From an uncultured Candidatus Saccharibacteria bacterium (GTDB taxonomy: Bacteria; Patescibacteriota; Minisyncoccia; Phycocordibacterales; CSBR16-119): a stretch of 58,651 bases of DNA. The stretch is taken from the NCBI GenBank assembly GCA_964581035.1, contig CAZOLO010000005.1:1-58651 (forward strand), given 5' to 3'. Positions 1-20,063 of this stretch are shown piece by piece. A program made the position numbers and the translations under genes. A model generated the notes under the pieces. It did not search any database. It was not told where the DNA came from and saw only the letters and a program-made list of their open reading frames with translations. Every line of letters begins with the position of its first letter. Position 1 is the stretch's first letter.

Positions 1-86
1 AGAAGGGTCAAGATAATATATTCCAATTAGTGAAAATAACCTTACTGGGTAAGGAATCACATGGTTCGAGCTCGAGAAGGCTCACA

Positions 87-133
87 TAAAACAGTTAGGC
101 CCGGACACACAGTGTTCGGGTTTTACTGTTTTA
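87..133 (+). terminator. Stem-loop upstream of structured element copy 1
   Basis: TAAAACAGT/ACTGTTTTA outer stem, plus AGGCCCGGACAC/GTGTTCGGGTTT inner stem with G-U pairs and an ACA loop. Confidence 0.55.
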
Positions 134-144
134 CTGACGGTAAA

Positions 145-273
145 GGAATCGAAAGACGAAGCCGGTATACAAGACGAGCTACAGCGAGTGCTTGTCGGCG
201 AGCCGGGGTCGCGAGCACTTGGGCTTTTTCGAGTTTTGCGAAGAAAAAGACTTAGTGACTTGTGACCGATTCC
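145..273 (+). repeat. Structured non-coding element, copy 1 (three-way junction)
   Basis: Closing stem GGAATCG/CGATTCC; arm GCCG..ACAAG..C-GA-GCT-ac-AGC-GA-G..CTTGT-CGGC; arm GGTCGCGAG-CACT..CTTTTTC/GAAAAAG..AGTG-CTTGTGACC; same architecture as 4727-4852. Confidence 0.6.
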
Positions 274-286
274 CCGTACCCTCACA

Positions 287-325
287 AATATAAGAAGTCA
301 CGTTTGAAACGTGACTTCTTATATT
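287..325. terminator. Perfect 19-bp inverted repeat (terminator/palindrome)
   Basis: AATATAAGAAGTCACGTTT-G-AAACGTGACTTCTTATATT, just past the stop of the minus-strand regulator gene. Confidence 0.7.
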
Positions 326-337
326 CTTAAGCATTAT

Positions 338-1090
338 CTATTCCCCGTCCCACATATACCGAAACATATTCTCAAAAGTTTTTGCAATGTCTTCGCTTTC
401 AATAATAGTTGTTACGATTTCATCTTTCATTGATGTAATGCTCACAGTGTTGTTGTAAATCATTACCTGGGCAGGCATTGTAAATCTCTCAACAGGAATT
501 ATCTTTCTAGTAATATTCCTCTCTAAGTTATGTGCCAACTTTTTTGTACCCATGTGAGGTAGGTGTGGTGTTAGAACAAAAGAGCGTATACCTTTCATAG
601 ACTGCCTTTCTAATTGCTCTGTAACCATACTTCTAATATCCTTATTCTCTCTATCATAAAGAGAGCGTATAACTCGAACCTCTTTAGCGCTTTTTAAGAT
701 ATCTTCATATGTTTTCTTAACACCCTCTAAGCCTTCATAGAATTCGATATGAGGCTTGTTGTGAGCCATATTATAGTCAGACATCATTTCTGTAATATTT
801 TCCTCGTATGCCCTGCTGGCTCTCTTTAGCTCTTTTTCTTTTTTTTCAATAAGCGACCTAACATTTTTAGGATGCTTCGCTCTAAACAATCGAATTTTTC
901 CTTTCTCTTCTCTTTCCACTAAACCAAGATCTTCTAGCTGACCCAGAACTATATAAGTTAGCTCTCTCCCAATCCCGGATTTTGTGGCTATAAGCCTAAC
1001 AGGTAAGACTCTTGCGGAAACAAGTGATTCATATATTTTCGCTTGATTTTCAGACAAACCGAGCTTTTCTAAAGAATTTAAATACTTCAT
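338..1090 (-). CDS. TrmB-family HTH transcriptional regulator
   Basis: N-terminal LEKLGLSENQAKIYESL..IATKSGIGRELTYIVLGQL winged HTH; FYEGLEGVKKTYEDIL and C-terminal effector-like domain; start moved to MKYLNS. Confidence 0.8.
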   Translation of the reverse strand: MKYLNSLEKLGLSENQAKIYESLVSARVLPVRLIATKSGIGRELTYIVLGQLEDLGLVEREEKGKIRLFRAKHPKNVRSLIEKKEKELKRASRAYEENITEMMSDYNMAHNKPHIEFYEGLEGVKKTYEDILKSAKEVRVIRSLYDRENKDIRSMVTEQLERQSMKGIRSFVLTPHLPHMGTKKLAHNLERNITRKIIPVERFTMPAQVMIYNNTVSITSMKDEIVTTIIESEDIAKTFENMFRYMWDGE

Positions 1091-1249
1091 TGTAAATAAT
1101 ATTTTACAAAATAAACAATTATAAATCAACTATTACTCTTGCTGTAAAACACTTTTTAATGATACCCCTTATAAATGTAATTTAGATGTGTACATACTAG
1201 TCTTAATACCCCACAATATAGTTAAAGAAACATTAAAAACAAAATAACA

Positions 1250-1573
1250 ATGGAAACGAAAAAGAAAGTGCTTTGTCAAAAATGGGAAGAATCAGAATAT
1301 GAACCAGGTTGGGGAGTTAGTGTAAGACCTGATGGATGCTCTCTCCACACATCAGAAAATGAACTGTCTAAGTATGTAAAAAAATATTGGGATAGCATGC
1401 CAGACGAAACGCCCGACATATACTCTAGACCAGATGGAGATGGTGTGTGGTGCGAAGTAAGCTTGGATTTCTTTAGAGAAGTTAAAGAAATAGAAGAAAG
1501 AGATCTGTGGGTTCGAGTGTTCCAGAGACATATGAATGGTGATATAAACACTTGGCTTGATATTAAAAAATAA
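1250..1573 (+). CDS. Hypothetical protein (107 aa, Trp/acidic rich)
   Basis: ATG after an A-rich leader; 12 nt upstream of the next gene; no family recognised. Confidence 0.65.
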   Translation: METKKKVLCQKWEESEYEPGWGVSVRPDGCSLHTSENELSKYVKKYWDSMPDETPDIYSRPDGDGVWCEVSLDFFREVKEIEERDLWVRVFQRHMNGDINTWLDIKK

Positions 1574-1585
1574 AGAAATGAAATC

Positions 1586-2239
1586 ATGAAAACAATCACA
1601 GAAAATAGACAAAGATTCCTAGACAGACTTGCTGGTCACTTCTCCATAGAAGACATGAGGCTGATCGAGTATGCTTATGACCTGTCTAAGGAGGCGCATC
1701 GAACACATGTTCGTGACAGTGGAGAAAGATACTTTGAGCATCCACGAGAAGGAGCCCTTATCATCATTGATGAACTTAAGCTCTATGATAGAGATCTCAT
1801 TATAGCCTTCCTTCTTCATGATACCGGAGAAGATAGTCCTATTTTTGGAAATCGAAATGTTTCATACAAGCTTTTCCGGGAAACACTACTTTTCAGAACT
1901 AAGCTTCTTTTCGGGAATAGAGTAGCCTCTATTCTTCTTAGACTCACCAAGCCATCGATTGACCGGGTTATCTTTAATTCAAAAGATGCGGTAAAGAGGT
2001 TTTATCTGTCAGGAATCAGAAAGAGCGCGGACGCAATTATTGGCAAGATGGTGGACAGGCTTCATAACCTCCGAACACTTTCTGAGTGTAGTAAGGATAA
2101 GGTGCTTAGCCAGATCAAAGAAACAGAAGAAGTATACATTCCAATCTTTTCCTCGGTGACCGGAGAAAAGCAAAAGTATGCAGACATGCTTCTTTCTAAG
2201 ATCTTTGCAGAATTACAAACATTAAAAGCGAGTCTTTAG
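1586..2239 (+). CDS. Stand-alone RelA/SpoT-type HD hydrolase (small alarmone hydrolase-like)
   Basis: AH..RDSGERYFEHP, LLHDTGED, LTK and KMVDRLHNLRTL motifs; no synthetase domain. Confidence 0.85.
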   Translation: MKTITENRQRFLDRLAGHFSIEDMRLIEYAYDLSKEAHRTHVRDSGERYFEHPREGALIIIDELKLYDRDLIIAFLLHDTGEDSPIFGNRNVSYKLFRETLLFRTKLLFGNRVASILLRLTKPSIDRVIFNSKDAVKRFYLSGIRKSADAIIGKMVDRLHNLRTLSECSKDKVLSQIKETEEVYIPIFSSVTGEKQKYADMLLSKIFAELQTLKASL

Positions 2240-2249
2240 ACTCGCTTTT
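2224..2249. terminator. Bidirectional terminator-like hairpin
   Basis: AAAAGCGAGTCT-TT-AGACTCGCTTTT between convergent genes. Confidence 0.7.
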
Positions 2250-2257
2250 TTATGAAC

Positions 2258-2899
2258 CTATCTAAAAGGAATTATAATCTTTTCTCTTGACCTTTCTTCA
2301 TATTCTTTATCCTCGGTAAAAATCATCTCCACAGCCTCTGACTTAAAGTCAGATAAAAATGATAAGTCAATGAAACTGGATGCAACCTCTTCTGCATACC
2401 GCTCGTCTTCAAACTTAAAAAGAGTAATGTGGGGATTGAAATTTTTAAAGCCATACGGATAGCCCCATTTTTTCATGTTTTCAATCTCTTTAGGGTCTAA
2501 CCTCTTTAAGACGTCTGAATTAGTGTAGATATCCTTCACAAGACCTTCTCTTAGCGGATTTAACCTATTCATTAAGGTTTTGTGAAATAGCATTAAGTCG
2601 TCTTTCGCATAAAAACTAATAGATACATACCCGCTCTTATTCCCTAAACCTTTTGGATTAATTTCTATCGGTTTGAACCCAGAAGAAATATCTCTTACTG
2701 TATTAATAACTTTTTCTTTGTTTGAAACAGGAAAAATCCCAACATATAGACTAATATGGGCATGGTCAGGATTCTTTTCTAAAGATCTTGTTCCACTTTT
2801 ATCCTTAACGATGTCTCTAGTTACATCAACAAGTCCAGAAATGTATCGCTCTGGAACCTTAAGAGAGACAACTAGCATAAATGTATTTTTTATTTCCAT
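2258..2899 (-). CDS. 2H phosphoesterase (2'-5' RNA ligase superfamily)
   Basis: Two HxS/T motifs: AHISL and FNPHITL. Confidence 0.75.
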   Translation of the reverse strand: MEIKNTFMLVVSLKVPERYISGLVDVTRDIVKDKSGTRSLEKNPDHAHISLYVGIFPVSNKEKVINTVRDISSGFKPIEINPKGLGNKSGYVSISFYAKDDLMLFHKTLMNRLNPLREGLVKDIYTNSDVLKRLDPKEIENMKKWGYPYGFKNFNPHITLFKFEDERYAEEVASSFIDLSFLSDFKSEAVEMIFTEDKEYEERSREKIIIPFR

Positions 2900-2908
2900 A
2901 AGATAATA

Positions 2909-3577
2909 TTACCACTCAATCCCCTCCTCACCCCTTCCTTTCAAATACTCATTCGCTTGGGAGAAATGTTTACATCCTAAGAATCCAGTGTGAGCCGAAA
3001 GTGGTGAGGGGTGTGGAGCCTCTAGAACTAAATGTTTGGTTGTATCTATTAATCCCTTCTTTTCTTTCGCAAAGTTACCCCACAACATGAATACAGCCCC
3101 TTCTCTTTGGTCTGAAATTGTCTTTATAGCCATGTCAGTAAGCTTCTCCCACCCTTTTCCTCTATGCGATGCTGGCTCGCCTGACACGACGGTAAGAATT
3201 GAATTTAATAAAAGAACACCTTGGCTCCCCCATTCTTCCAAGTTTCCTTTTGTGAAATCTTTTTTAATACCAATATCACTTTCAATTTCCTTATATATAT
3301 TCTTGAGAGATGGTGGAAGTTTCACACCGTCTTGTACTGAGAAACACAAACCGTGGGCCTGCCCTTCTCCATGGTATGGATCCTGGCCGATTATTACAAC
3401 CTTCACTTTATCAAAGGGTGTAAGGCTAAAAGCATTAAAAAGATCTTCCTGTTTTGGATAAACAGCCTTTGATAAATACTCCTTTTGCACAAAATCTGAC
3501 AAGCTAAGCCACACATCAGAATTCAAGAAATTCTTAAGTTTCTCTTTCCAGCTTTTTTCTATCTGAACATCTTTCAT
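2909..3577 (-). CDS. ung: Uracil-DNA glycosylase family 1
   Basis: GQDPYH, GLCFSV, PPSLKNI, HPSPLS motifs. Confidence 0.97.
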   Translation of the reverse strand: MKDVQIEKSWKEKLKNFLNSDVWLSLSDFVQKEYLSKAVYPKQEDLFNAFSLTPFDKVKVVIIGQDPYHGEGQAHGLCFSVQDGVKLPPSLKNIYKEIESDIGIKKDFTKGNLEEWGSQGVLLLNSILTVVSGEPASHRGKGWEKLTDMAIKTISDQREGAVFMLWGNFAKEKKGLIDTTKHLVLEAPHPSPLSAHTGFLGCKHFSQANEYLKGRGEEGIEW

Positions 3578-3589
3578 GTTGTAAGTATA

Positions 3590-3617
3590 ACAAAAGACCT
3601 CTTTCGAGGTCTTTTGT
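3590..3617 (-). terminator. tRNA-Pro terminator
   Basis: ACAAAAGACCTC-TTTC-GAGGTCTTTTGT directly downstream of the tRNA. Confidence 0.7.
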
Positions 3618-3622
3618 ATTTG

Positions 3623-3695
3623 TCGGAGTGCCGGGATTCGAACCCGGAGTCACCCGTACCCAAAACGGGCATGTTAGCCGTTACACCACACTCCG
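3623..3695 (-). tRNA. tRNA-Pro(TGG), CCA not encoded
   Basis: Reverse complement CGGAGTG...CCCGT-TT-TGG-GT-ACGGG...CCGGG-TTCGAAT-CCCGG-CACTCCG-A. Confidence 0.95.
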
Positions 3696-3771
3696 TTGTA
3701 TGTGAAACTCCAATATCTTATCATAACGGCAAATAAATACAATTAAAAAAGAGGCAAAAGCCTCTTTAAAA

Positions 3772-3987
3772 TCAATAAGGATTATCTGTATCTATTTGAT
3801 CCGTTTTTTTACCAGAATTTCTTTCCCCTTCATCATCAGAGTCAACATAACCAGATTGATCTGGAAAATCATCCTCTTCATTAGGTTCCGAGTGACTTGG
3901 GTTCTCTGAACTAGATAACCTAGATTCAGAAATTATACCAAAGTCACCTGAGGACCTCTCTCCCTTACCCGATACTTTAATTGTCAT
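3772..3987 (-). CDS. Small acidic, probably disordered hypothetical protein
   Basis: 71-aa ORF downstream of yraN, followed by hairpin AAAGAGGC/GCCTCTTT (3748-3767). Confidence 0.5.
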   Translation of the reverse strand: MTIKVSGKGERSSGDFGIISESRLSSSENPSHSEPNEEDDFPDQSGYVDSDDEGERNSGKKTDQIDTDNPY

Positions 3988-4019
3988 GGTTTCATACTTT
4001 TGTTCATATGAATTTTACA

Positions 4020-4400
4020 CTATAAATCTATCATTTCAACTTTTGCCACTTTTTCATCCTGGTCTATCAAGACATTTAGAAGTTTTATATCTGTTTCACA
4101 TGAAACTTCATTATTCATGAGATATATATTTACAGCCTTCAAAAATCTTTCAATCTTCTTTGGATGCATGTTTTCTGCAGGATTGTATGTTTCATATGAA
4201 ACATCACGTTTGTATATACTACTTTTTACCTCAAAAAAGTATAAGATGCTGTCTTTTTTAGCAATAACGTCAATTTCCCCTTGTTTTACAGTGTAATTAC
4301 GGCAAATTATAGAGAAACCTTCTCTTTTTAGGAATTTAACAGCAAGATCTTCGCCTAGTTGACCAATTTTTTGCGTTTTTGATGTAAATACTCGAATCAC
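4020..4400 (-). CDS. yraN: YraN-family (UPF0102) PD-(D/E)XK-like protein
   Basis: GQLGEDLAVKFL, RNY..GEIDVIA..FFEVK. Confidence 0.9.
   Translation of the reverse strand: MIRVFTSKTQKIGQLGEDLAVKFLKREGFSIICRNYTVKQGEIDVIAKKDSILYFFEVKSSIYKRDVSYETYNPAENMHPKKIERFLKAVNIYLMNNEVSCETDIKLLNVLIDQDEKVAKVEMIDL
4092..4107. promoter_or_regulatory. parS: parS-like site (inside yraN)
   Basis: TGTTTCACATGAAACT vs consensus TGTTTCACGTGAAACA. Confidence 0.7.
4188..4203. promoter_or_regulatory. parS: parS-like site (inside yraN)
   Basis: TGTTTCATATGAAACA, perfect palindrome. Confidence 0.8.
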
Positions 4401-4407
4401 GTTGATA

Positions 4408-4423
4408 AGTTTCAGATGAAACC
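4408..4423. promoter_or_regulatory. parS: Degenerate parS-like site
   Basis: AGTTTCAGATGAAACC. Confidence 0.55.
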
Positions 4424-4432
4424 ATATATTTA

Positions 4433-4448
4433 TGTTTCACGTGAAACA
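4433..4448. promoter_or_regulatory. parS: Consensus parS site
   Basis: TGTTTCACGTGAAACA exact match, inside a perfect 32-bp palindrome (4425-4456). Confidence 0.92.
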
Positions 4449-4533
4449 TAAATATAACTATTGTCCATTAAAATTGTTGTAAAATAAGGCTTTTATGCCT
4501 TTAAAGACATTCTTATTATACCAAATTGTGTCG

Positions 4534-4576
4534 TTTATCCCCTTTATCAACACACTTATCCACACAAGGGGATAAA
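4534..4576. promoter_or_regulatory. DnaA-box cluster inside the parS region
   Basis: TTATCCACA (4556-4564) and TTATCAACA (4544-4552), flanked by inverted TTTATCCCCTT/AAGGGGATAAA. Confidence 0.55.
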
Positions 4577-4587
4577 TGTCTTTTATA

Positions 4588-4603
4588 CGTTTCATATGAA
4601 ACA
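4588..4603. promoter_or_regulatory. parS: parS-like site
   Basis: CGTTTCATATGAAACA. Confidence 0.75.
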
Positions 4604-4726
4604 TAATTGTATAAATACACTGATTTGTATGAATTTTGACTTCAGAATTGTATATCAGGGGGAATTACCACTTTATTTAGTTATTCTGAGATTCAACCAT
4701 AAATAGTTATTTTGTAAGTTGAAGGA

Positions 4727-4852
4727 GGGGTATCGATCCCGGAGTTGCTAATATTCTCGAAAATCAGAGATTTTCTGCGATATAAGTACTCCTGGACGCA
4801 GCTCGCCTTTTCTCACTTCGCTCGAAATATGGCTCCACTGGCTCGAATCCCC
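4727..4852 (-). repeat. Structured non-coding element, copy 2 (downstream of tRNA-Arg)
   Basis: Minus strand GGGGATTCGA..CAGT-GGA-GCC..TTT-C-GA-GC-gaa-GT-GA-G-AAA..GGC-GA-GCTG..GTCCAGGAGTACTT..GAAAATC/GATTTTC..TAGCAACTCCGGGATCGATACCCC. Confidence 0.6.
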
Positions 4853-4892
4853 GCAAAGAAAGAAGTTTCTTTGCTCCTCTTGTGTGTCACGG

Positions 4893-4933
4893 AATAGCAA
4901 AAAACACACAAATATTGTGTGTTTTTTGCTATT
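4893..4933 (-). terminator. tRNA-Arg terminator, perfect 19-bp inverted repeat
   Basis: AATAGCAAAAAACACACAA-ATA-TTGTGTGTTTTTTGCTATT. Confidence 0.75.
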
Positions 4934-4935
4934 TG

Positions 4936-5007
4936 TGCACCCGGAGGGATTCGAACCCCCAACGACGGTTCCGAAGACCGGTATGATATCCATTTCACTA
5001 CGGGTGC
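4936..5007 (-). tRNA. tRNA-Arg(TCG), CCA not encoded
   Basis: Reverse complement GCACCCG..CGGT-CT-TCG-GA-ACCG..GGGGG-TTCGAAT-CCCTC-CGGGTGC-A. Confidence 0.93.
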
Positions 5008-5018
5008 TTAGTTAAATG

Positions 5019-5034
5019 CGTTTCATATGAAACA
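5019..5034. promoter_or_regulatory. parS: parS-like site
   Basis: CGTTTCATATGAAACA just upstream of tRNA-Arg. Confidence 0.75.
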
Positions 5035-5118
5035 GGGTAGATTATATGACGTTTCCCCAAATAAAGCAATACATTTTAGTAAAAAAGTGTTATGATTTAA
5101 TAGTTAATCATTAAATAT

Positions 5119-5171
5119 GTGGGTATAAGCCATCGGGGCAATATACCAGGGTTCGAATCCCTATATCCGCA
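5119..5171 (+). ncRNA. Anticodon-less tRNA-like element in the cca leader (candidate)
   Basis: GTGGGTA/TATCCGC-A acceptor-like stem; GCC-ATCGG-GGC D-like arm; AGGG-TTCGAAT-CCCT T arm; extended -10 TGTTATGAT at 5088-5096. Confidence 0.55.
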
Positions 5172-5181
5172 AAACAGATCA

Positions 5182-6693
5182 ATGCAAACAATGCATTTTA
5201 AAATACCAAAAGAAGTAGTCAAAGTTGTTGAAACCCTTAAAAATGGAGGTTTTGAGGCATTTTTGGTAGGTGGATGTGTTAGAGATCTTTTAACAAACAA
5301 GAATCCAAAAGATTGGGACCTAACAACAAATGCAAAACCAGAACAAATTCAGGGGTTGTTTGAAAAAACAGTATATGAGAATAACTTTGGGACAGTTGCT
5401 ATTGTGAACGAAGACTTAGAACAGGACAGCCCGGTTAGAGTAATAGAAGTAACTCCTTATAGGACAGAGACAACCTACAGTAATAATCGTCACCCAGATG
5501 AAGTATCTTTCAGTGAAAACCTGGAGGATGATCTAAAGAGAAGGGATTTTACTATGAATGCAATAGCCCTTGAAGTCAAAGGGTTTCTCATGGACAGCGA
5601 TAAAGGACAGGAGGTTATTATAAAAGACATGTATGGTGGCATAAAAGACATTCAAGAGCAGACTATTAGAGCGGTGGGGGATGCTAATGAAAGATTCCAA
5701 GAAGACGCTCTTAGAATTATGCGTGCTATAAGATTTTCTTCACAACTTGGTTTCATGGCAGATTCTGAAGTTCTAGAGGCTATGGAAAAGAACAAGACCC
5801 TAATGGCAAATATATCTGAGGAAAGAATTCGAGATGAATTAGTAAAGATCATAAACTCAGACGATCCAATGATAGCTTTCGTTACAATGCAACGAATCGG
5901 AATATTACCTTATGTAATCTCTGAGCTCGAGGAGATGATAAAAATTGAACAGGGAGGAGAGCATATCTACGATGTGTGGGAGCATTCACTGAGAGCCTTG
6001 CAGAATGGGGCTGACAAAAAGAATCCGTTTCACGTGAGACTTGCTGCGCTATTCCACGATATAGGGAAACCACGAACTAGAAAACCTGACCCAAAGGGGA
6101 AGGGTTGGACTTTCTATGCCCATGAGGTGATTGGGGCAAGAATGACTAAAAAGATCATGAATAGGCTACACTTTTCACGTGAAACCACAGAAAAGGTTGT
6201 TTCACTTGTGAGATGGCATATGTTTTTCTCAGATCCAGACCAAATAACACTTTCAGCTGTAAGGAGACTTATACGAAATGTAGGACCTGAGCTAGTTTGG
6301 GATCTTATGGATGTTCGCAGATGTGACCGAATAGGGATGGGAAGGCCAAAAGAAGCTCCATATAGACTAAGAAAGTTTGAGGCTATGATTGATGAGGTAA
6401 GTAGAGATCCAGTCTCAGTGAAACAGCTCAAACTCAATGGAGATATCATGCTGGCAGAACTTGGCATGAAACCAGGTAGGGAAATAGGTTGGATACTCCA
6501 CGCACTGCTGGAAGAAGTGCTAGATGACCCAAAAAAGAATGAATTGGAGTACCAAAAATGTCGTGCCCAAGAACTCCTAGATTTACCAAAAGAAGAACTT
6601 AAAAAGCTTGGTGAAGCAGGGAAGGAGGCAACAGAAGAGGCGGAAGAGGCAGAATTGAAGGAGATTAGAAAGAAACATAAGGTAGGTAAGTAA
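5182..6693 (+). CDS. cca: CCA tRNA nucleotidyltransferase with HD domain
   Basis: LVGGCVRDLL..KDWDL, DLKRRDFTMNA, RFQEDALRIMRAIRF, HS..FHDIGKP; start at MQTMHF (5182 or 5191) rather than the GTG at 5119. Confidence 0.92.
   Translation: MQTMHFKIPKEVVKVVETLKNGGFEAFLVGGCVRDLLTNKNPKDWDLTTNAKPEQIQGLFEKTVYENNFGTVAIVNEDLEQDSPVRVIEVTPYRTETTYSNNRHPDEVSFSENLEDDLKRRDFTMNAIALEVKGFLMDSDKGQEVIIKDMYGGIKDIQEQTIRAVGDANERFQEDALRIMRAIRFSSQLGFMADSEVLEAMEKNKTLMANISEERIRDELVKIINSDDPMIAFVTMQRIGILPYVISELEEMIKIEQGGEHIYDVWEHSLRALQNGADKKNPFHVRLAALFHDIGKPRTRKPDPKGKGWTFYAHEVIGARMTKKIMNRLHFSRETTEKVVSLVRWHMFFSDPDQITLSAVRRLIRNVGPELVWDLMDVRRCDRIGMGRPKEAPYRLRKFEAMIDEVSRDPVSVKQLKLNGDIMLAELGMKPGREIGWILHALLEEVLDDPKKNELEYQKCRAQELLDLPKEELKKLGEAGKEATEEAEEAELKEIRKKHKVGK
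6026..6041. promoter_or_regulatory. parS: parS-like site (inside cca)
   Basis: CGTTTCACGTGAGACT. Confidence 0.55.
6171..6186. promoter_or_regulatory. parS: parS-like site (inside cca)
   Basis: CTTTTCACGTGAAACC. Confidence 0.6.
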
Positions 6694-11125: not shown

Positions 11126-12052
11126 TTATTTTCTCTTACCATGAAACTTTTTGTGGACTTCTTTTAGATGTTTATTTGTGACGTGGGTATAGATCTGAGT
11201 AGTAGATATATCTGCGTGACCTAGAAGTTGCTGCACAGCTCGAATGTCCGCACCATTCTCAAGCAGGTCTGTTGCGAAGCAGTGACGAATTACGTGAGGT
11301 GTAACTTTCTTTGTGATACCGGCAAGAGTGGCGTATTTCTTTACTATTCTCTCCACTGATCTTCGATCGAGTCCTTTATTTTCGTCTATCTTATTTTTAT
11401 TCTTAGAAACATTTACAAAAAGCGCATCAGACATATCTTTCCTAACTGAAAAATATTTTCTCAAAGCATCTTTTGCAACAGGGGATAGGAATACAATTCG
11501 AACCTTCCCACCTTTTCCTCGAACAGAGAATTCATCGCGAGAAAGATCAATATCACGAGTAAGCGCACACAACTCAGACACACGGAGCCCCGTAGAAAAA
11601 AGCATTTCTAAAATTGCCTGGTCTCGATATTTTATCTCAGGGTTTTCCTCCTTGCTTGGAGCTTCAAATAGTCTACCCATTTCTTGTGTGGAAATAATAT
11701 CGATCTGTCTTTCTGGAACCTTTGCCAACTCTATCTGATCAGCAGACAGAGTGGTGTGACCATGCTTAGTCATATGTTTCAAAAAAGATCGAATGGCAAT
11801 CATGTAATAATTCTGAGTTTTCTTACTCATTGTCTTACCGGTGGCACGATTGTTTCCTGCAGACTGCCTATTGAGCCAAAGACGAAAAGCTCTAACAACT
11901 GGCTCAGTGATGTCTTTTGGTTTTTTAACACCAGTCTGGTTTAAAAATACAGTGATGTAGTGATCATAATTCTGAATTGTTTTTACAGCACGCCCCTTTT
12001 CTATTTCTAAATATTCTAGGAATTGCCTTTTGAGTGTCTGCAAATCTTTCAT
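11126..12052 (-). CDS. XerC/XerD-type tyrosine recombinase
   Basis: RDQAILEMLFSTGLRVSEL, GKGGKVR, TPHVIRHCFAT, LLGHADISTTQIY; start moved to MKDL. Confidence 0.92.
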   Translation of the reverse strand: MKDLQTLKRQFLEYLEIEKGRAVKTIQNYDHYITVFLNQTGVKKPKDITEPVVRAFRLWLNRQSAGNNRATGKTMSKKTQNYYMIAIRSFLKHMTKHGHTTLSADQIELAKVPERQIDIISTQEMGRLFEAPSKEENPEIKYRDQAILEMLFSTGLRVSELCALTRDIDLSRDEFSVRGKGGKVRIVFLSPVAKDALRKYFSVRKDMSDALFVNVSKNKNKIDENKGLDRRSVERIVKKYATLAGITKKVTPHVIRHCFATDLLENGADIRAVQQLLGHADISTTQIYTHVTNKHLKEVHKKFHGKRK

Positions 12053-18388: not shown

Positions 18389-18988
18389 ATGAAGAAATTT
18401 TTTGCAACATTGATTATTTCAGTAGTTATCACTGGAATGTACTCTTGTGAACCCAGAAACAAAAACCTCAATAACAATTTTGTAGAAGGAGCTCAGGCTT
18501 CTGAAGAAGATGCCATGTCCACCATAGACAGAAAAAAATGGATACCGAAAACTAAAATGGATTCCATCTTTGTTGAGACGGTGAATGAGGCAGAAAACTT
18601 CATAGACCTCTATGGGGACACTCTTATCCACGATGACTTTTGGTGGGACTCAAACCTTGCAAAAGATATCGAGTTTAACAGAATTAGAATTTGCCCACTC
18701 CGAAACATGCTGACCATAGAAAAGAGACCTTTTCCATGCAAACCAAATGTTCCAGTGATTAGAATAAGCCTTGAAAGGAATTTTAATGGCAGCTATTTTA
18801 TTGAAAAAAGCTACTTCGAAAACAATCAAGAGGTTGTTGAACAGAGGATGCAGATTCACATATACACCAACGAAGAGATGGAGAAAGCTACTGCTATTTT
18901 CAAAAGCCGCATCAAGGAAGCCCACGGATACACGGATGGGTTCCGAGAAAAATCTTTAACCTATCGATTAAAACAGATATCTGAGTAA
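18389..18988 (+). CDS. Putative lipoprotein, hypothetical
   Basis: MKKFFATLIISVVITGMYS-C signal; own promoter and terminator (~19002-19030). Confidence 0.65.
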   Translation: MKKFFATLIISVVITGMYSCEPRNKNLNNNFVEGAQASEEDAMSTIDRKKWIPKTKMDSIFVETVNEAENFIDLYGDTLIHDDFWWDSNLAKDIEFNRIRICPLRNMLTIEKRPFPCKPNVPVIRISLERNFNGSYFIEKSYFENNQEVVEQRMQIHIYTNEEMEKATAIFKSRIKEAHGYTDGFREKSLTYRLKQISE

Positions 18989-19061
18989 GATAATTGTTGA
19001 TGAGCCTCCCACATTTTTGTGGGAGGTTTTTTGTTTTCAATTTCAAGGTATAATAATTCTA

Positions 19062-20063
19062 ATGGAAGGAAATAACAAAAATGAAAAAGAGTTTTCAGGT
19101 GGAGTAGAGTTTCACAAAGAGGCTCCTGTAGAAACACCCAAAGAGGAGCTTTCACAAATGAAAGACAAGCCAACAGAAACTGTTGGGGGTATTGAGTTTG
19201 CAAAGGAGAAAAAAGAAGAAGAAAAAATAGAAGCAAAAGAAATCTCAGCAGAGAAAAAAGTTTTTCGTACAATGTCAGCAGACATCGGAAACAGAGCGGG
19301 CCAAAAACAAGGGGCGGCTCTGCAGGCTATTTTAAAACAAGAAAGAGAGAATAAAGAAGCTCAGAAAAGGAGGCAAACTAATCTGGTTTTTGGTCTTGTT
19401 AGTTTAGTTCTTTTTGTTTCAGCCGTAGGAATATTTTTCTATGCAACAAGAGAAGAAGCACCCGTAGAACAGAAGACTCAGGTGGTTCAAAGGTCAATAG
19501 TCTATGCAGAAAACCACAACAGAATCGACACAACAAATATTCTACCAATTACACTTGTCTCAAAAATAAGTAGTAAAGTTTCTTCAGGAGGTTCTGATAT
19601 TGGAGAAGTGACAAACTTATACTTCACAAAGAATATTGGAGATAATAAAGTTCAGACACTTAGCTCAAAAGAATTTCTTGGGGCAATCCAAAGTAGCATT
19701 CCTGGTGCCATGATAAATTCACTAGGAAAAGATTTTATGCTTGGAGTTTATTCAGGGGATACAGTTAAGCCGTTTTTAATTCTTGAAGCACCTATAAGAA
19801 ACACCTCTTCACAGATGAAAATTTGGGAGTCAACGCTTCTACAAGACATGTCTAGAATATTAGATATTGAAGTCATGGACACAGACCTCTATATTAAACC
19901 TTGGCAAGATGTTCAAATACAAAACAAGAACACTAGAGTATTATTGGATAATGAATCGAACCTAGTCTTGAGCTACACATATATATCAGATGATCTTCTG
20001 GTTATAACAACCAGCCAAATAGCAATTCAAGAAATATTACAGAGGCTTGCAACACAGTTTTAA
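19062..20063 (+). CDS. Single-pass membrane hypothetical protein
   Basis: Charged N-terminus, one TM helix (LVFGLVSLVLFVSAVGIFFY), extracytoplasmic domain; ATG 7 nt after TATAAT. Confidence 0.75.
   Translation: MEGNNKNEKEFSGGVEFHKEAPVETPKEELSQMKDKPTETVGGIEFAKEKKEEEKIEAKEISAEKKVFRTMSADIGNRAGQKQGAALQAILKQERENKEAQKRRQTNLVFGLVSLVLFVSAVGIFFYATREEAPVEQKTQVVQRSIVYAENHNRIDTTNILPITLVSKISSKVSSGGSDIGEVTNLYFTKNIGDNKVQTLSSKEFLGAIQSSIPGAMINSLGKDFMLGVYSGDTVKPFLILEAPIRNTSSQMKIWESTLLQDMSRILDIEVMDTDLYIKPWQDVQIQNKNTRVLLDNESNLVLSYTYISDDLLVITTSQIAIQEILQRLATQF

What the first reader, a model, noticed from the sequence alone, without database searches (positions are those of the whole stretch)
145..273. Unnamed ~130-nt structured element in two diverged, covarying copies (145-273 + and 4727-4852 -)
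Seen: both copies keep the same motif order GGAWTCGA...GRAGCC...CGAGC-N-AGYGAG...GGCGAGC...GTC..GAGYACTT...TTAGYRACT...GAYCGATWCCCC although their stems differ. Both fold by hand into a closing stem plus two arms. Arm 1 has C-GA-GC(loop)GY-GA-G tandem G.A pairs and a GRA/GA internal loop. Stems are swapped compensatorily (ACAAG/CTTGT vs TTT/AAA; CTTTTTC/GAAAAAG vs GAAAATC/GATTTTC). Each copy directly follows a separate hairpin. Both ends resemble tRNA T-arm sequence, one sense and one antisense. Copy 2 lies just downstream of tRNA-Arg; copy 1 ends in a tRNA-3'-end-like tail (CGATTCCCCGTACCCTCA) followed by a 19-bp palindrome. Known: GC-GAA-GC mini-hairpins and sheared G.A pairs are very stable in ssDNA and occur in REP-type elements. 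Inference: a tRNA-associated non-autonomous mobile element or an undescribed ncRNA family. No cognate enzyme is visible in this window.
Basis: partly seen in the sequence, partly recalled or inferred. Interest (0 to 1): 0.82.

Follow-up and report, generated by a model that had tools for sequence, protein, structure and literature searches.

The report
Gene-less structured element shadowing tRNA genes
Both copies belong to a widespread, undescribed family of about 130-220-base folded elements in Paceibacteria (Patescibacteria) that sit just after tRNA and tmRNA genes and carry both an antisense and a sense copy of that gene's 3' end, so they look like a new kind of tRNA-targeting insertion element or tRNA-mimicking RNA.

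Summary
The two window copies (145-275 +, 4876-4715 -) belong to a family with at least 5 copies in this 745-kb genome. A covariance model finds it in 103 of 151 genomes of the same order, with 1-18 copies each and some tandem arrays. It finds it in only 2 of 150 other genomes of the phylum. Rfam, phage and plasmid collections and five literature searches gave no match.

The fold is a 5' hairpin, a closing stem and two arms. It is supported by covariation: 41 of 42 pairs show changes on both sides.

The key new result concerns position and content. 69 of 109 elements lie 22-62 nt downstream of a same-strand tRNA or tmRNA. Each element carries three parts:
- an antisense copy of that tRNA's T-loop, T-stem and often its acceptor 3' strand and trailer;
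- a conserved core;
- a sense copy of the tRNA 3' end, starting at C56.

Congeneric genomes show exact empty versus filled sites. Cores at different tRNAs within one genome are each other's closest relatives.

Best reading (about 0.4): a gene-less insertion or duplication element aimed at tRNA 3' ends, whose folded single strand rebuilds the target duplex, with the enzyme unknown. Main rival (about 0.3): a tRNA-top-half-mimicking non-coding RNA co-transcribed with tRNAs. Expression could not be tested.

The parts
1..121 (+). Sequence at the contig edge upstream of copy 1. It holds a hairpin module (about 55-95, GGTTCGAGCTCGAGAAGG) like the one that follows copy 3 and tRNA-Gly elsewhere in the genome, then a terminator-like hairpin at 97-123.
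   Evidence: Read. Related module at C4:62978 and C6:45671. Terminator-like site 97-123.
122..144 (+). Copy 1: 5' hairpin (TTTACTG...CGGTAAA) in the position of hairpin H0.
   Evidence: Read. Included in the model match 120-286.
145..151 (+). Copy 1: closing-stem 5' strand P1a (GGAATCG), antisense to a tRNA T-loop/T-stem (CGATTCC).
155..204 (+). Copy 1: arm P2, with the GAC-GAA-GCC / GGC-GA-GCC tandem G.A internal loop and the C-GA-GC(loop)GC-GA-G tip.
   Evidence: Homologous columns in alignment A4.
207..266 (+). Copy 1: arm P3 (GGTCGCGAGCACTT ... TTAGTGACTTGTGAC) with a variable distal hairpin.
267..285 (+). Copy 1: P1b plus sense copy X' of a tRNA 3' end (CGATTCCCCGTACCCTCAC). It has 1 mismatch to the 3' end of this genome's tRNA-Gly(tcc), which lies on another contig.
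287..325 (+). Palindrome (about 19 bp arms) after copy 1, terminator-like.
   Evidence: Read.
4935..5007 (-). tRNA-Arg(tcg), the gene that copy 2 follows. Its T-loop to 3' end (segment X) pairs with the element's 5' part.
4893..4933 (-). Spacer hairpin (AAATAGCAAAAAACACACAA-TA-TTTGTGTGTTTTTTGCTATT). It forms the tip of the long inverted repeat between the tRNA 3' end and the element's 5' part.
4853..4892 (-). Copy 2: leader (degenerate acceptor-5'-strand-like, 4892-4875) and hairpin H0 (GCAAAGAAA-CTTC-TTTCTTTGC, 4874-4853).
4840..4852 (-). Copy 2: P1a (GGGGATTCGAGCC), antisense to the tRNA-Arg T-arm (GGTTCGAATCCC) with one G.T/U position.
4799..4840 (-). Copy 2: arm P2 (CAGTG-GA-GCC ... GGC-GA-GCTG, tip CGAGCGAAGTGAG).
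4736..4797 (-). Copy 2: arm P3 (GTCCAGGAGTACTTA ... TTAGCAACTCCGGGAT). Its 3' strand resembles a T-stem 5' strand.
4715..4735 (-). Copy 2: P1b plus a decayed sense copy X' (CGATACCCCTCCTTCAAC).
   Evidence: longest run shared with tRNA-Arg is only 7.

Best explanation
The two copies belong to a family of gene-less, structured DNA units that insert into, or duplicate at, the 3' end of tRNA and tmRNA genes. Write X for the stretch of the tRNA from T-loop position C56 to the discriminator and trailer. A unit then reads: X, a trailer hairpin that often looks like a terminator, the reverse complement of trailer and acceptor strand, hairpin H0, the reverse complement of the T-stem and T-loop (P1a), arm P2, arm P3, and then a second sense copy X'. 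The ancestral flank continues after X'.

Shown here: the architecture; its tight linkage and co-orientation with tRNA/tmRNA genes; the covarying fold; exact empty versus filled sites between congeners; tandem arrays; a patchy copy number of 0-18; and cores at different tRNAs within one genome being closest relatives while the tRNA-matching ends differ.

Inferred: the unit is, or recently was, mobile or duplicative. Its single strand (DNA, possibly also its transcript) folds so that the antisense parts pair with X. That pairing rebuilds a double-stranded image of the tRNA gene's T-arm and acceptor region with H0 and P2 as side branches. Integron attC sites and the CTX phage attP are comparable examples: they rebuild a recombination site from one folded strand. 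A recombinase supplied in trans would then act at the T-loop. The enzyme, and how new tRNA-specific ends are acquired, are unknown.
For: 1. Linkage. Of 109 elements, 98 have a same-strand tRNA/tmRNA upstream in the held locus. 69 lie 22-62 nt away and 22 lie 131-385 nt away, mostly as later units of arrays. Some sit between tRNAs of one operon.
2. Three copies of X. The sense tail shares an exact run of at least 12 with the neighbour tRNA in 45 of 91 elements, against a mean run of 5.2 with tRNAs from other loci. P1a has an antisense run of at least 9 in 62 of 91, against a control mean of 5.8. The leader is complementary to the neighbour's acceptor strand plus trailer over a run of at least 8 in 31 of 69, against about 2 of 68 in controls.
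3. Empty versus filled sites. For tRNA-Gly(tcc), the tRNA in G000 is followed directly by CCA and a flank hairpin. In G002 the same CCA and flank follow X' of the element instead. For tRNA-Asp, G000 is empty and G002 is filled, and the flank of X' is orthologous to the trailer of the empty site. At tRNA-Arg(tcg), G000 has core type A, G002 has type B, and G001 has none.
4. Intragenomic spread. The 16 most similar core pairs among G065/G165 copies are all within one genome, sit at different tRNAs, and have dissimilar ends. Mean core identity is 0.46 within genomes (136 pairs) and 0.36 between genomes (140 pairs).
5. Arrays and patchiness. Matches occur in 103 of 151 genomes, at 1-18 copies, with tandem units of about 148 nt period.
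6. Fold. 41 of 42 pairs have changes on both sides. G.U cells number 180 against 84 A.C cells out of 4198, so the sense strand is the one that folds. The window stretch from the tRNA-Arg T-arm to P3 folds as one branched hairpin, -53.3 kcal/mol, z = -8.98, with 0 of 200 shuffles as good.
7. Expression context. No sigma-70-like promoter match lies upstream of either window copy on its strand, and many spacers look like terminators.
8. The A3 part of X' decays in about half of the copies, as expected for a displaced pseudo-end.
Against: - No recombinase co-occurs convincingly. The genome has no reverse transcriptase, TnpB or IS110 transposase.
- Y1_Tnp is absent from 34 of 103 element-bearing genomes; the odds ratio of 2.4 is uncorrected for kinship.
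- At least 13 element-bearing genomes lack a Resolvase match, including G072 with 12 copies.
- Tyrosine recombinases are present, but they were not profiled across genomes, so they could not be tested as a partner.
- No excised form or within-population polymorphism was seen.
- An empty site can equally arise by deletion between X and X'.
- A conservative crossover in the T-loop cannot by itself explain how an element acquires ends that match a new tRNA.
- Loops are conserved in sequence (H0 loop CUGC, the GGC-G-GA-GCC/GGC-GA-GCC motif, ACUUA/UUAGUAAC). Operon-embedded copies must be transcribed. Both points fit an RNA role equally well.
- The closing-stem part of X' stays about 90% paired.
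Confidence: 0.4

Rival explanations
1. A family of non-coding RNAs co-transcribed with tRNAs or tmRNA. In this reading the leader/acceptor-like strand plus P1a pair with the 3' tail. That gives a coaxial helix imitating the acceptor and T-stem 'top half' of the neighbouring tRNA, with H0 leaving where the D and anticodon arms would. tRNA enzymes (RNase P, RNase Z, CCA-adding enzyme) would then cut the RNA out and stabilise it. The conserved P2/P3 core would bind an unknown partner or perform the actual function.
For: - Strong covariation and a sense-strand G.U bias.
- Strict co-orientation with tRNA genes, and copies inside tRNA operons without intervening terminators.
- Sequence-conserved loops and a tandem G.A motif across the order and even in two genomes of other classes.
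- The closing-stem pairs are kept at about 90%.
- Terminators commonly follow the element.
Against: - About two thirds of the spacers I read contain a hairpin plus T-run ahead of the element, and no promoter-like site lies between it and the element in the window.
- The acceptor-like stem within the element is barely above control: mean longest helix 6.0 against 5.2.
- The leader fits the upstream tRNA better than the element's own tail: 31 of 69 against 9 of 69.
- Copy number runs from 0 to 18, a third of genomes have none, and turnover between congeners is fast. That is unusual for a functional RNA.
- No expression data could be obtained.
Confidence: 0.3
2. A cis-acting part of the tRNA transcription unit (3' external spacer). 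The antisense segment would pair with the tRNA's own 3' third in the precursor, while the sense copy X' competes for it. Together they would form a switch or insulator that tunes termination, 3' processing or precursor stability.
For: The antisense parts match the upstream tRNA and trailer better than the element's own tail. The predicted long branched hairpin that includes the tRNA T-arm is very stable. Placement is always immediately 3' of the tRNA.
Against: Only a minority of tRNAs in a genome carry one: at least 5 of about 31 tRNA/tmRNA genes in G000. Many genomes have none. Second and third units in arrays have no tRNA of their own. Invading a folded T-arm would harm the tRNA. A conserved three-way-junction core is not needed for such a switch.
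Confidence: 0.12
3. Scars of larger integrative islands: attR-side remnants left after deletion of prophages or islands that target tRNA/tmRNA 3' ends.
For: tRNA and tmRNA 3' ends are used by islands in these genomes. In three loci a large serine recombinase gene abuts the tRNA/tmRNA, and a 5-7 kb island separates it from the matching element. Direct repeats of the tRNA 3' end are the classic att signature.
Against: In those three loci the island junction lies at the extreme 3' end of the tRNA/tmRNA, and the original trailer, hairpin and element follow it. So the element is chromosomal context, not the island's end. A neutral scar would not keep a covarying fold across more than 90 genera. No match was found in viral contigs, phage records or plasmid records.
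Confidence: 0.08

Closest known systems
Integron attC sites and the folded single-stranded attP of CTX phage / Xer-exploiting elements (recalled from general knowledge, not from a call)
   Same: A single strand folds into an imperfect hairpin that rebuilds a double-stranded recombination site. Extrahelical branches or bases interrupt the helix. Structure is conserved more than sequence. Units occur in arrays. The enzyme is supplied in trans.
   Different: Here the rebuilt duplex is the 3' third of a specific tRNA/tmRNA gene and differs from copy to copy. No cassette ORFs, attI or integron integrase context were seen. The T-loop (GTTCGAA) does not fit the attC core GTTRRRY. No strand-exchange evidence exists.
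tRNA/tmRNA-targeting genomic islands and their integrase-less derivatives (cis-mobilisable elements)
   Same: Insertion at the 3' part of a tRNA/tmRNA gene. The tRNA 3' end appears as a direct repeat at the far end. The gene stays intact. Units accumulate in tandem.
   Different: The unit is only 130-250 bp and has no gene. It additionally carries an antisense copy of the target and a conserved covarying three-way junction. Up to 18 different tRNA genes are occupied in one genome.
REP/BIME (REPIN) elements with RAYT (Y1 HUH) transposases
   Same: Extragenic, gene-less, hairpin-forming repeats 3' of genes, often in arrays, containing GCGAAGC-like mini-hairpins. Y1_Tnp genes are common in this order (91 of 151 genomes).
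   Different: The element is much longer and branched, tRNA-specific and co-oriented. It does not flank the Y1 gene of G000. The Y1 gene seen in G001 has its own unrelated flanking hairpins. 34 of 103 element-bearing genomes lack Y1_Tnp.
tRNA-like processing modules: plant mitochondrial t-elements, MALAT1 mascRNA, bacterial YrlA (recalled; papers seen only as search listings)
   Same: An acceptor/T-stem-like helix next to or within a transcript that could recruit RNase P, RNase Z or the CCA-adding enzyme.
   Different: There is no T-loop or cloverleaf; neither ARAGORN nor the Rfam tRNA model detects the element. The helix copies the neighbouring tRNA's sequence, and the T-loop nucleotides are paired.
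Retroviral/LTR primer-binding site and IS110 bridge RNA (recalled)
   Same: A nucleic-acid segment complementary to a tRNA's 3' terminal 18-25 nt (primer-binding site). A split guide embedded in a structured scaffold with sense and antisense target parts (bridge RNA).
   Different: No reverse transcriptase or IS110 transposase in the genome. The complementary segment is interrupted by hairpin H0. No adjacent enzyme gene.

Membership tests
Any Rfam 15 family | Match to a curated covariance model at or near its gathering score | tested here: not met
   At gathering thresholds, only the two tRNAs match in the whole window. At E<=10 over 1-5200, none of the 26 matches covers the cores at 145-273 or 4727-4852.
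tRNA / tmRNA gene | Cloverleaf with D, anticodon and T arms (or a tmRNA tRNA-like domain plus tag frame) | tested here: not met
   ARAGORN and RF00005/RF00023 detect the neighbouring genes but not the elements. Only the acceptor strands and the T-loop 3' half plus T-stem 3' strand are present.
tRNA-targeting integrative element | Direct repeat of the tRNA 3' end bounding the insert, with the tRNA gene left intact | tested here: met
   A sense repeat with an exact run of at least 12 in 45 of 91 elements. Empty and filled orthologous sites.
tRNA-targeting integrative element | Integrase or recombinase gene inside the element | tested here: not met
   Units are 130-250 bp with no conserved ORF. 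The recombinase genes of G000 lie elsewhere.
REP/REPIN-RAYT | A cognate Y1 (RAYT) gene flanked by the repeats and co-occurring with them | tested here: not met
   The single Y1_Tnp gene is at C6:24642-24920, and no model match lies on contig C6. The 2x2 table over 151 genomes is 69/34/22/26.
Integron attC | R''-L''...L'-R' hairpin with the GTTRRRY core, cassette ORFs, and IntI/attI nearby | tested here: not met
   From reading the sequences: the crossover-like boundary lies in GTT|CGA of the T-loop, and no ORF cassettes lie between units. IntI was not searched for specifically.
IS200/IS605 derivatives (PATE), TnpB omega-RNA | TnpA/TnpB partner; the RNA scaffold ends at the element border followed by a guide | tested here: not met
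   No Cas12f1-like_TNB match in G000. Y1_Tnp is not linked.
Retron or other RT-linked ncRNA | Adjacent reverse transcriptase | tested here: not met
   No RVT_1 match in the 99%-complete genome.
TIGR-Tas arrays | Arrays processed into 36-nt guide RNAs next to a Tas (Nop-domain) gene | tested here: not met
   Units here are 130-220 nt and tRNA-linked. The 36-nt figure comes from passages of PMC12045711. Tas genes were not searched for.
Structured ncRNA (generic) | A discrete, expressed transcript | not testable with these tools
   The four RNA runs laid on 4560-5060 cover only the tRNA-Arg part, from other organisms.

The most novel reading that the evidence does not exclude
The element is a programmable, self-templating insertion unit. 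Its split antisense segment (leader/acceptor strand, H0, P1a), set in a conserved scaffold, reads the 3' end of a tRNA or tmRNA gene by base pairing. It would do so either as folded single-stranded DNA that mimics the target duplex for a host recombinase, or as a guide RNA for an unidentified enzyme. New copies would acquire their target-matching ends by copying the new target. That would be nucleic-acid-guided targeting of tRNA genes by a gene-less element in ultra-small bacteria, a mechanism class not described so far.
Probability: 0.15. Interest if true: 0.92.

Novelty: new variant of a known kind. Interest (0 to 1): 0.8.

Why it matters
Paceibacteria have 0.5-1 Mb genomes with little spare DNA, yet many carry up to 18 copies of this conserved folded unit at their tRNA and tmRNA genes. 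If it is mobile, it is a gene-less element that keeps its target gene intact by carrying a replacement 3' end and that encodes its target in antisense. That would bear directly on how recombination sites can be specified by nucleic-acid folding, and on how genomes of uncultivated symbionts are reshaped. If it is an RNA, it is a large new family of tRNA-top-half mimics with an unknown partner. Either way it is a well-defined, easily testable family that current RNA and repeat libraries miss. It also affects tRNA-gene annotation, for example encoded CCA versus none, and false 'terminators'.

Tried and rejected
- Rfam at gathering and at E<=10 gave nothing on the elements.
- tmRNA idea for the C8 copy: rejected. 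The real tmRNA lies just upstream.
- Retroelement or primer-binding-site idea: no RVT_1 match.
- TnpB omega-RNA and IS110 bridge RNA: no TnpB or IS110 transposase.
- REP/RAYT: weak, uncorrected association only.
- Large serine recombinase as partner: rejected. At least 13 element-bearing genomes lack a Resolvase match, and in three loci the islands simply insert between the tRNA/tmRNA and the element.
- Phage origin: a strict H0 pattern gave 0 hits in viral contigs. A looser core pattern gave 45 loci, none confirmed by the model. BLAST against phage and plasmid records gave no match. These searches have limited sensitivity.
- Expression: of 24 runs found, the 6 RNA runs held only 0.04-0.08 of the sampled words. 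The four RNA runs laid covered only 4917-5018, the tRNA, from other organisms, with no cover on the element. This is no evidence either way.
- Acceptor-like stem inside the element: only slightly above control, so I do not claim it as conserved.
- Literature: five word searches and term look-ups in two 2026 preprints found no description. I saw only listings and abstracts, plus passages of PMC12045711. Supplements were not available and might list such motifs.
Full report
**1. What is in the window.**

The motif order is the same in both. There is a closing stem (GGAATCG/CGATTCC; GGGGATTCGA/TCGATACCCC) and two arms. The arm stems differ in a compensatory way. The hairpin tips have the form C-GA-GC(loop)GY-GA-G.

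Each copy is preceded by a small hairpin. Copy 2 lies 58 nt downstream of tRNA-Arg(tcg). Copy 1 ends in CGATTCCCCGTACCCTCAC followed by a palindrome with arms of about 19 bp.

Rfam has no model for the element. At gathering thresholds, only the two tRNAs match in the window. At E<=10, none of the 26 weak matches in 1-5200 covers either core.

On their own, the two sequences fold better than shuffles only for copy 1 (z = -3.76; copy 2 z = -0.74). The case therefore rests on comparison with relatives.

**2. A large family.**

The window is contig C5 of a 745-kb, 15-contig genome that is 99% complete.

- BLAST and nhmmer found a third copy after tRNA-Glu on C4 and a weaker one on C8.
- The C8 copy lies directly after the tmRNA gene. 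ARAGORN missed that gene at default settings, but RF00023 scores it at 117.6 bits.
- Reading C4 showed a fifth unit, with a different core ('type C'), after tRNA-Arg(cct).
- Two congeneric genomes and one from another family had BLAST-level relatives.

Six of these sequences gave an RNAalifold consensus of 42 pairs, 14 of them with compensatory changes, and model R1. R1 finds 4 copies in the own genome. It finds matches in 103 of 151 genomes sampled from the same order (94 of 134 good-quality ones), at 1 to 18 per genome, including tandem units with a period of about 148 nt.

In a sample of the whole phylum, only 2 of 150 other genomes matched, and those two have the same architecture.

A pattern scan of named genome records returned 44 loci. 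They come from MAGs labelled Kaiserbacteria, Nomurabacteria, Taylorbacteria, Yonathbacteria, Paceibacteria/Parcubacteria and 'uncultured Candidatus Saccharibacteria', plus two contigs in Sulfurovum bins.

**3. The fold.**

On 59 further copies, the structure is paired in 91.7% of cells. Shuffles give 65.9% and slid partners give 31-46%. 41 of 42 pairs show changes on both sides. The caveat is that this alignment was fitted to the model.

G.U cells outnumber A.C cells, 180 to 84 of 4198. So it is the strand co-directional with the tRNA that folds.

The conserved parts are:
- hairpin H0, about 9 bp, with loop CUGC or CUUC;
- P1;
- P2, with a GGC-G-GA-GCC / GGC-GA-GCC tandem G.A loop and a GA-NC-NNN-GN-GA tip;
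- P3, with GUACUUA...UUAGUAAC and a variable distal hairpin.

**4. The key result: each unit mirrors its neighbouring tRNA.**

ARAGORN was run on the loci holding 109 elements. 98 have a same-strand tRNA or tmRNA upstream. 69 of these are at 22-62 nt, 22 at 131-385 nt (mostly second or third units of arrays), and 7 at more than 1 kb. 11 have none. Of those 11, two follow tmRNAs that ARAGORN missed and three lie within 120 nt of a locus edge. Partners include at least 17 tRNA species, and tmRNA is a frequent partner. Some units sit between tRNAs of one operon.

Side-by-side reading shows this order of parts:
- the tRNA;
- a trailer and a hairpin;
- the reverse complement of the trailer and of the acceptor 3' strand, which reads as a copy of the acceptor 5' strand, usually preceded by TGT;
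- H0;
- P1a, the reverse complement of the T-stem 3' strand plus the T-loop, sometimes reaching into the T-stem 5' strand;
- P2 and P3;
- then, starting at C56, a sense copy of the T-loop 3' half, T-stem 3' strand, acceptor 3' strand, discriminator and sometimes the trailer and even the terminator. One such repeat is at least 43 nt, in G214.

The D arm and the anticodon arm are absent.

The numbers, for 91 elements whose tRNA lies within 400 nt:

| Comparison | Result | Control |
|---|---|---|
| Sense tail vs neighbour tRNA, exact run of at least 12 | 45 of 91 | mean run 5.2 with tRNAs from other loci |
| P1a antisense run of at least 9 | 62 of 91 | mean run 5.8 |
| P1a fits the tRNA better than the element's own 3' strand | 74 of 91 | exact Watson-Crick runs only, so G.U pairs in the own stem are not credited |

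For 69 first units, the leader is complementary to the neighbour's acceptor strand plus trailer over at least 8 nt in 31. The figure is 9 for the element's own tail and about 2 of 68 for other tRNAs. An acceptor-like stem inside the element is barely above control (6.0 vs 5.2).

In the window, the stretch from the tRNA-Arg T-arm through P3 folds as a single branched hairpin. The spacer hairpin forms the tip and H0 is a side branch. With DNA parameters it gives -53.3 kcal/mol, z = -8.98, and 0 of 200 shuffles fold as well. The element alone gives z = -3.35.

**5. Evidence that the unit behaves as an insertion or duplication.**

(a) tRNA-Gly(tcc). In G000 the gene ends in an encoded CCA followed by a flank hairpin. 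In G002 the gene lacks CCA and is followed by a hairpin and an element, and the same CCA plus flank hairpin follow the element's sense copy. The two flanks are identical at nearly every aligned position over roughly 48 columns.

(b) tRNA-Asp. G000 has tRNA, terminator, then the next gene. G002 has a different hairpin and an element, and the sequence after the sense copy is orthologous to the G000 trailer.

(c) tRNA-Arg(tcg), the site of copy 2. G000 has a type-A core. G002 has a type-B core like copy 1. G001 has no element; instead it has a Y1 transposase gene with its own flanking hairpins.

(d) Spacer hairpins at different tRNAs in the genus share a tip motif, so the hairpin belongs to the unit.

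(e) In two element-rich genomes, the 16 most similar core pairs all lie within one genome, at different tRNAs, with dissimilar ends. Mean core identity is 0.46 for 136 within-genome pairs and 0.36 for 140 between-genome pairs, by a crude gap-penalising measure.

(f) The acceptor part of the sense copy has decayed in about half of the copies, while the closing-stem part stays about 90% paired.

Deletion between the two sense repeats would also produce the 'empty' states. Direction therefore cannot be assigned.

**6. Search for a partner enzyme.**

G000 has no RVT_1, TnpB-type or IS110-type match. It has three tyrosine recombinases (one in the window at about 11171-11689), two large serine recombinases and one 232-aa Y1_Tnp protein. 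None is next to an element.

Across the order sample, Y1_Tnp is present in 91 of 151 genomes. The 2x2 table against the element is 69/34/22/26 (odds ratio 2.4). It is uncorrected for kinship and assumes that the samples are the same genomes. Resolvase is present in 97 of 151 genomes, but at least 13 element-bearing genomes lack it.

In three loci an element was 5-7 kb from its matching tmRNA or tRNA-Met. In two of them (L080, L092), Pfam shows that the ORF abutting the tmRNA is a large serine recombinase. In the third (L072), a 530-aa ORF overlaps the tRNA in the same arrangement, but I did not run it against Pfam. In the two tmRNA loci the island junction reads clearly at the extreme 3' end of the gene, and the original trailer, hairpin and element follow it; the tRNA-Met locus looks the same but is less clear. 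So the elements are not island ends.

No convincing partner emerged. A ubiquitous host enzyme, or none at all, remains possible.

**7. Expression.**

Neither window copy has a sigma-70-like promoter match on its strand. Many spacers look like terminators, while operon-embedded copies must be transcribed. The public RNA runs that could be laid cover only the tRNA-Arg part. Expression is therefore untested.

**8. Interpretation.**

What is shown: an undescribed, order-wide family of gene-less folded units. They are tied to tRNA/tmRNA 3' ends, each encodes its neighbour's 3' end once in antisense and once in sense, and they vary in presence and number between close relatives.

What I infer (confidence about 0.4): the unit is an insertion or duplication element aimed at the T-loop-to-3'-end region. 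It brings a replacement 3' end and hairpin. Its single strand folds so that the antisense parts rebuild the target duplex, with H0 and P2 as extrahelical branches. This works like integron attC sites or the CTX phage attP, but the element is not a member of those families.

The main rival (about 0.3) is a tRNA-top-half-mimicking ncRNA cut out of tRNA precursors. A cis-regulatory spacer (about 0.12) and island scars (about 0.08) are less likely. The readings are not mutually exclusive.

How ends matching a new tRNA arise is unexplained. Copying of the target, gene conversion between the repeats, and palindrome correction are all possible.

**9. Novelty.**

I found no Rfam family, no phage or plasmid match and no description in the searches named under Tried and rejected. 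I file the element as a new variant of tRNA-associated non-autonomous elements or ncRNAs. There is a 0.15 chance that it represents a new class of nucleic-acid-guided targeting.

Noticed in passing
window 4189, 4589, 5020, 7176: The 14-bp palindrome GTTTCATATGAAAC occurs 4 times in the 745-kb genome, all within this 3-kb stretch around tRNA-Arg and copy 2. The same motif lies just before the Y1 transposase ORF in G001 and downstream of the element in G002. It could be an operator, a promoter part or a repeat of another element.
   Followed up: partly
window about 55-95; also G000 C4:62978 and C6:45671, and G002 L016: A second conserved hairpin module (..TTCAAGCGCTCGAGAAG.. / GGTTCGAGCTCGAGAAGG) follows tRNA-Gly, copy 3 and a G002 element, and sits at the contig edge upstream of copy 1.
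   Followed up: partly
G000 C4:50262-50388 and C8:31752-31540: These are units with the same terminal logic but a different, H0-less, GA-rich core ('type C': GAGG..GGCGAAGCC..CGAGTGG..GAGGGAGTGAG..CACGAGAGTGA). The C8 copy after tmRNA is a composite of type C and type A. Model R1 misses pure type C, so copy counts are lower bounds.
   Followed up: partly
L184 (G001:C3, about 18840-19790): A Y1 (HUH) transposase-like gene lies downstream of tRNA-Arg(tcg). CTTAGAGGTT(C/G)AACCTCTAAG hairpins occur around and within it, where G000 and G002 carry the element. These hairpins have no copy in G000.
   Followed up: partly
L080 2269-7440; L092 418-7560; L072 658-6930: Islands of 5-7 kb are inserted at the extreme 3' end of tmRNA or tRNA-Met. 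In L080 and L092 they begin with a large serine recombinase gene confirmed by Pfam; the equivalent 530-aa ORF in L072 was not scanned. One island carries an 892-aa PHP + AAA_21/SMC-like protein and another a small-terminase-like protein.
   Followed up: partly
whole genome G000: ARAGORN finds only 30 tRNA genes and, at default settings, no tmRNA. No tRNA-Lys(UUU) was reported in this 37% G+C genome, and an odd 'tRNA-Ser(act)' lies at C10:50-138. Contig edges, or unusual tRNA genes, may hide some.
   Followed up: no
window about 11171-11689 (-): A 327-aa tyrosine recombinase (Phage_integrase, 145 bits), one of three in the genome. It is probably Xer-like and was not examined further.
   Followed up: no
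G000 C6:45582-45657 vs G002 L016: The same tRNA-Gly(tcc) has an encoded CCA where no element follows it (G000) and none where an element follows (G002, G001). So the element changes how the tRNA 3' end must be matured.
   Followed up: partly
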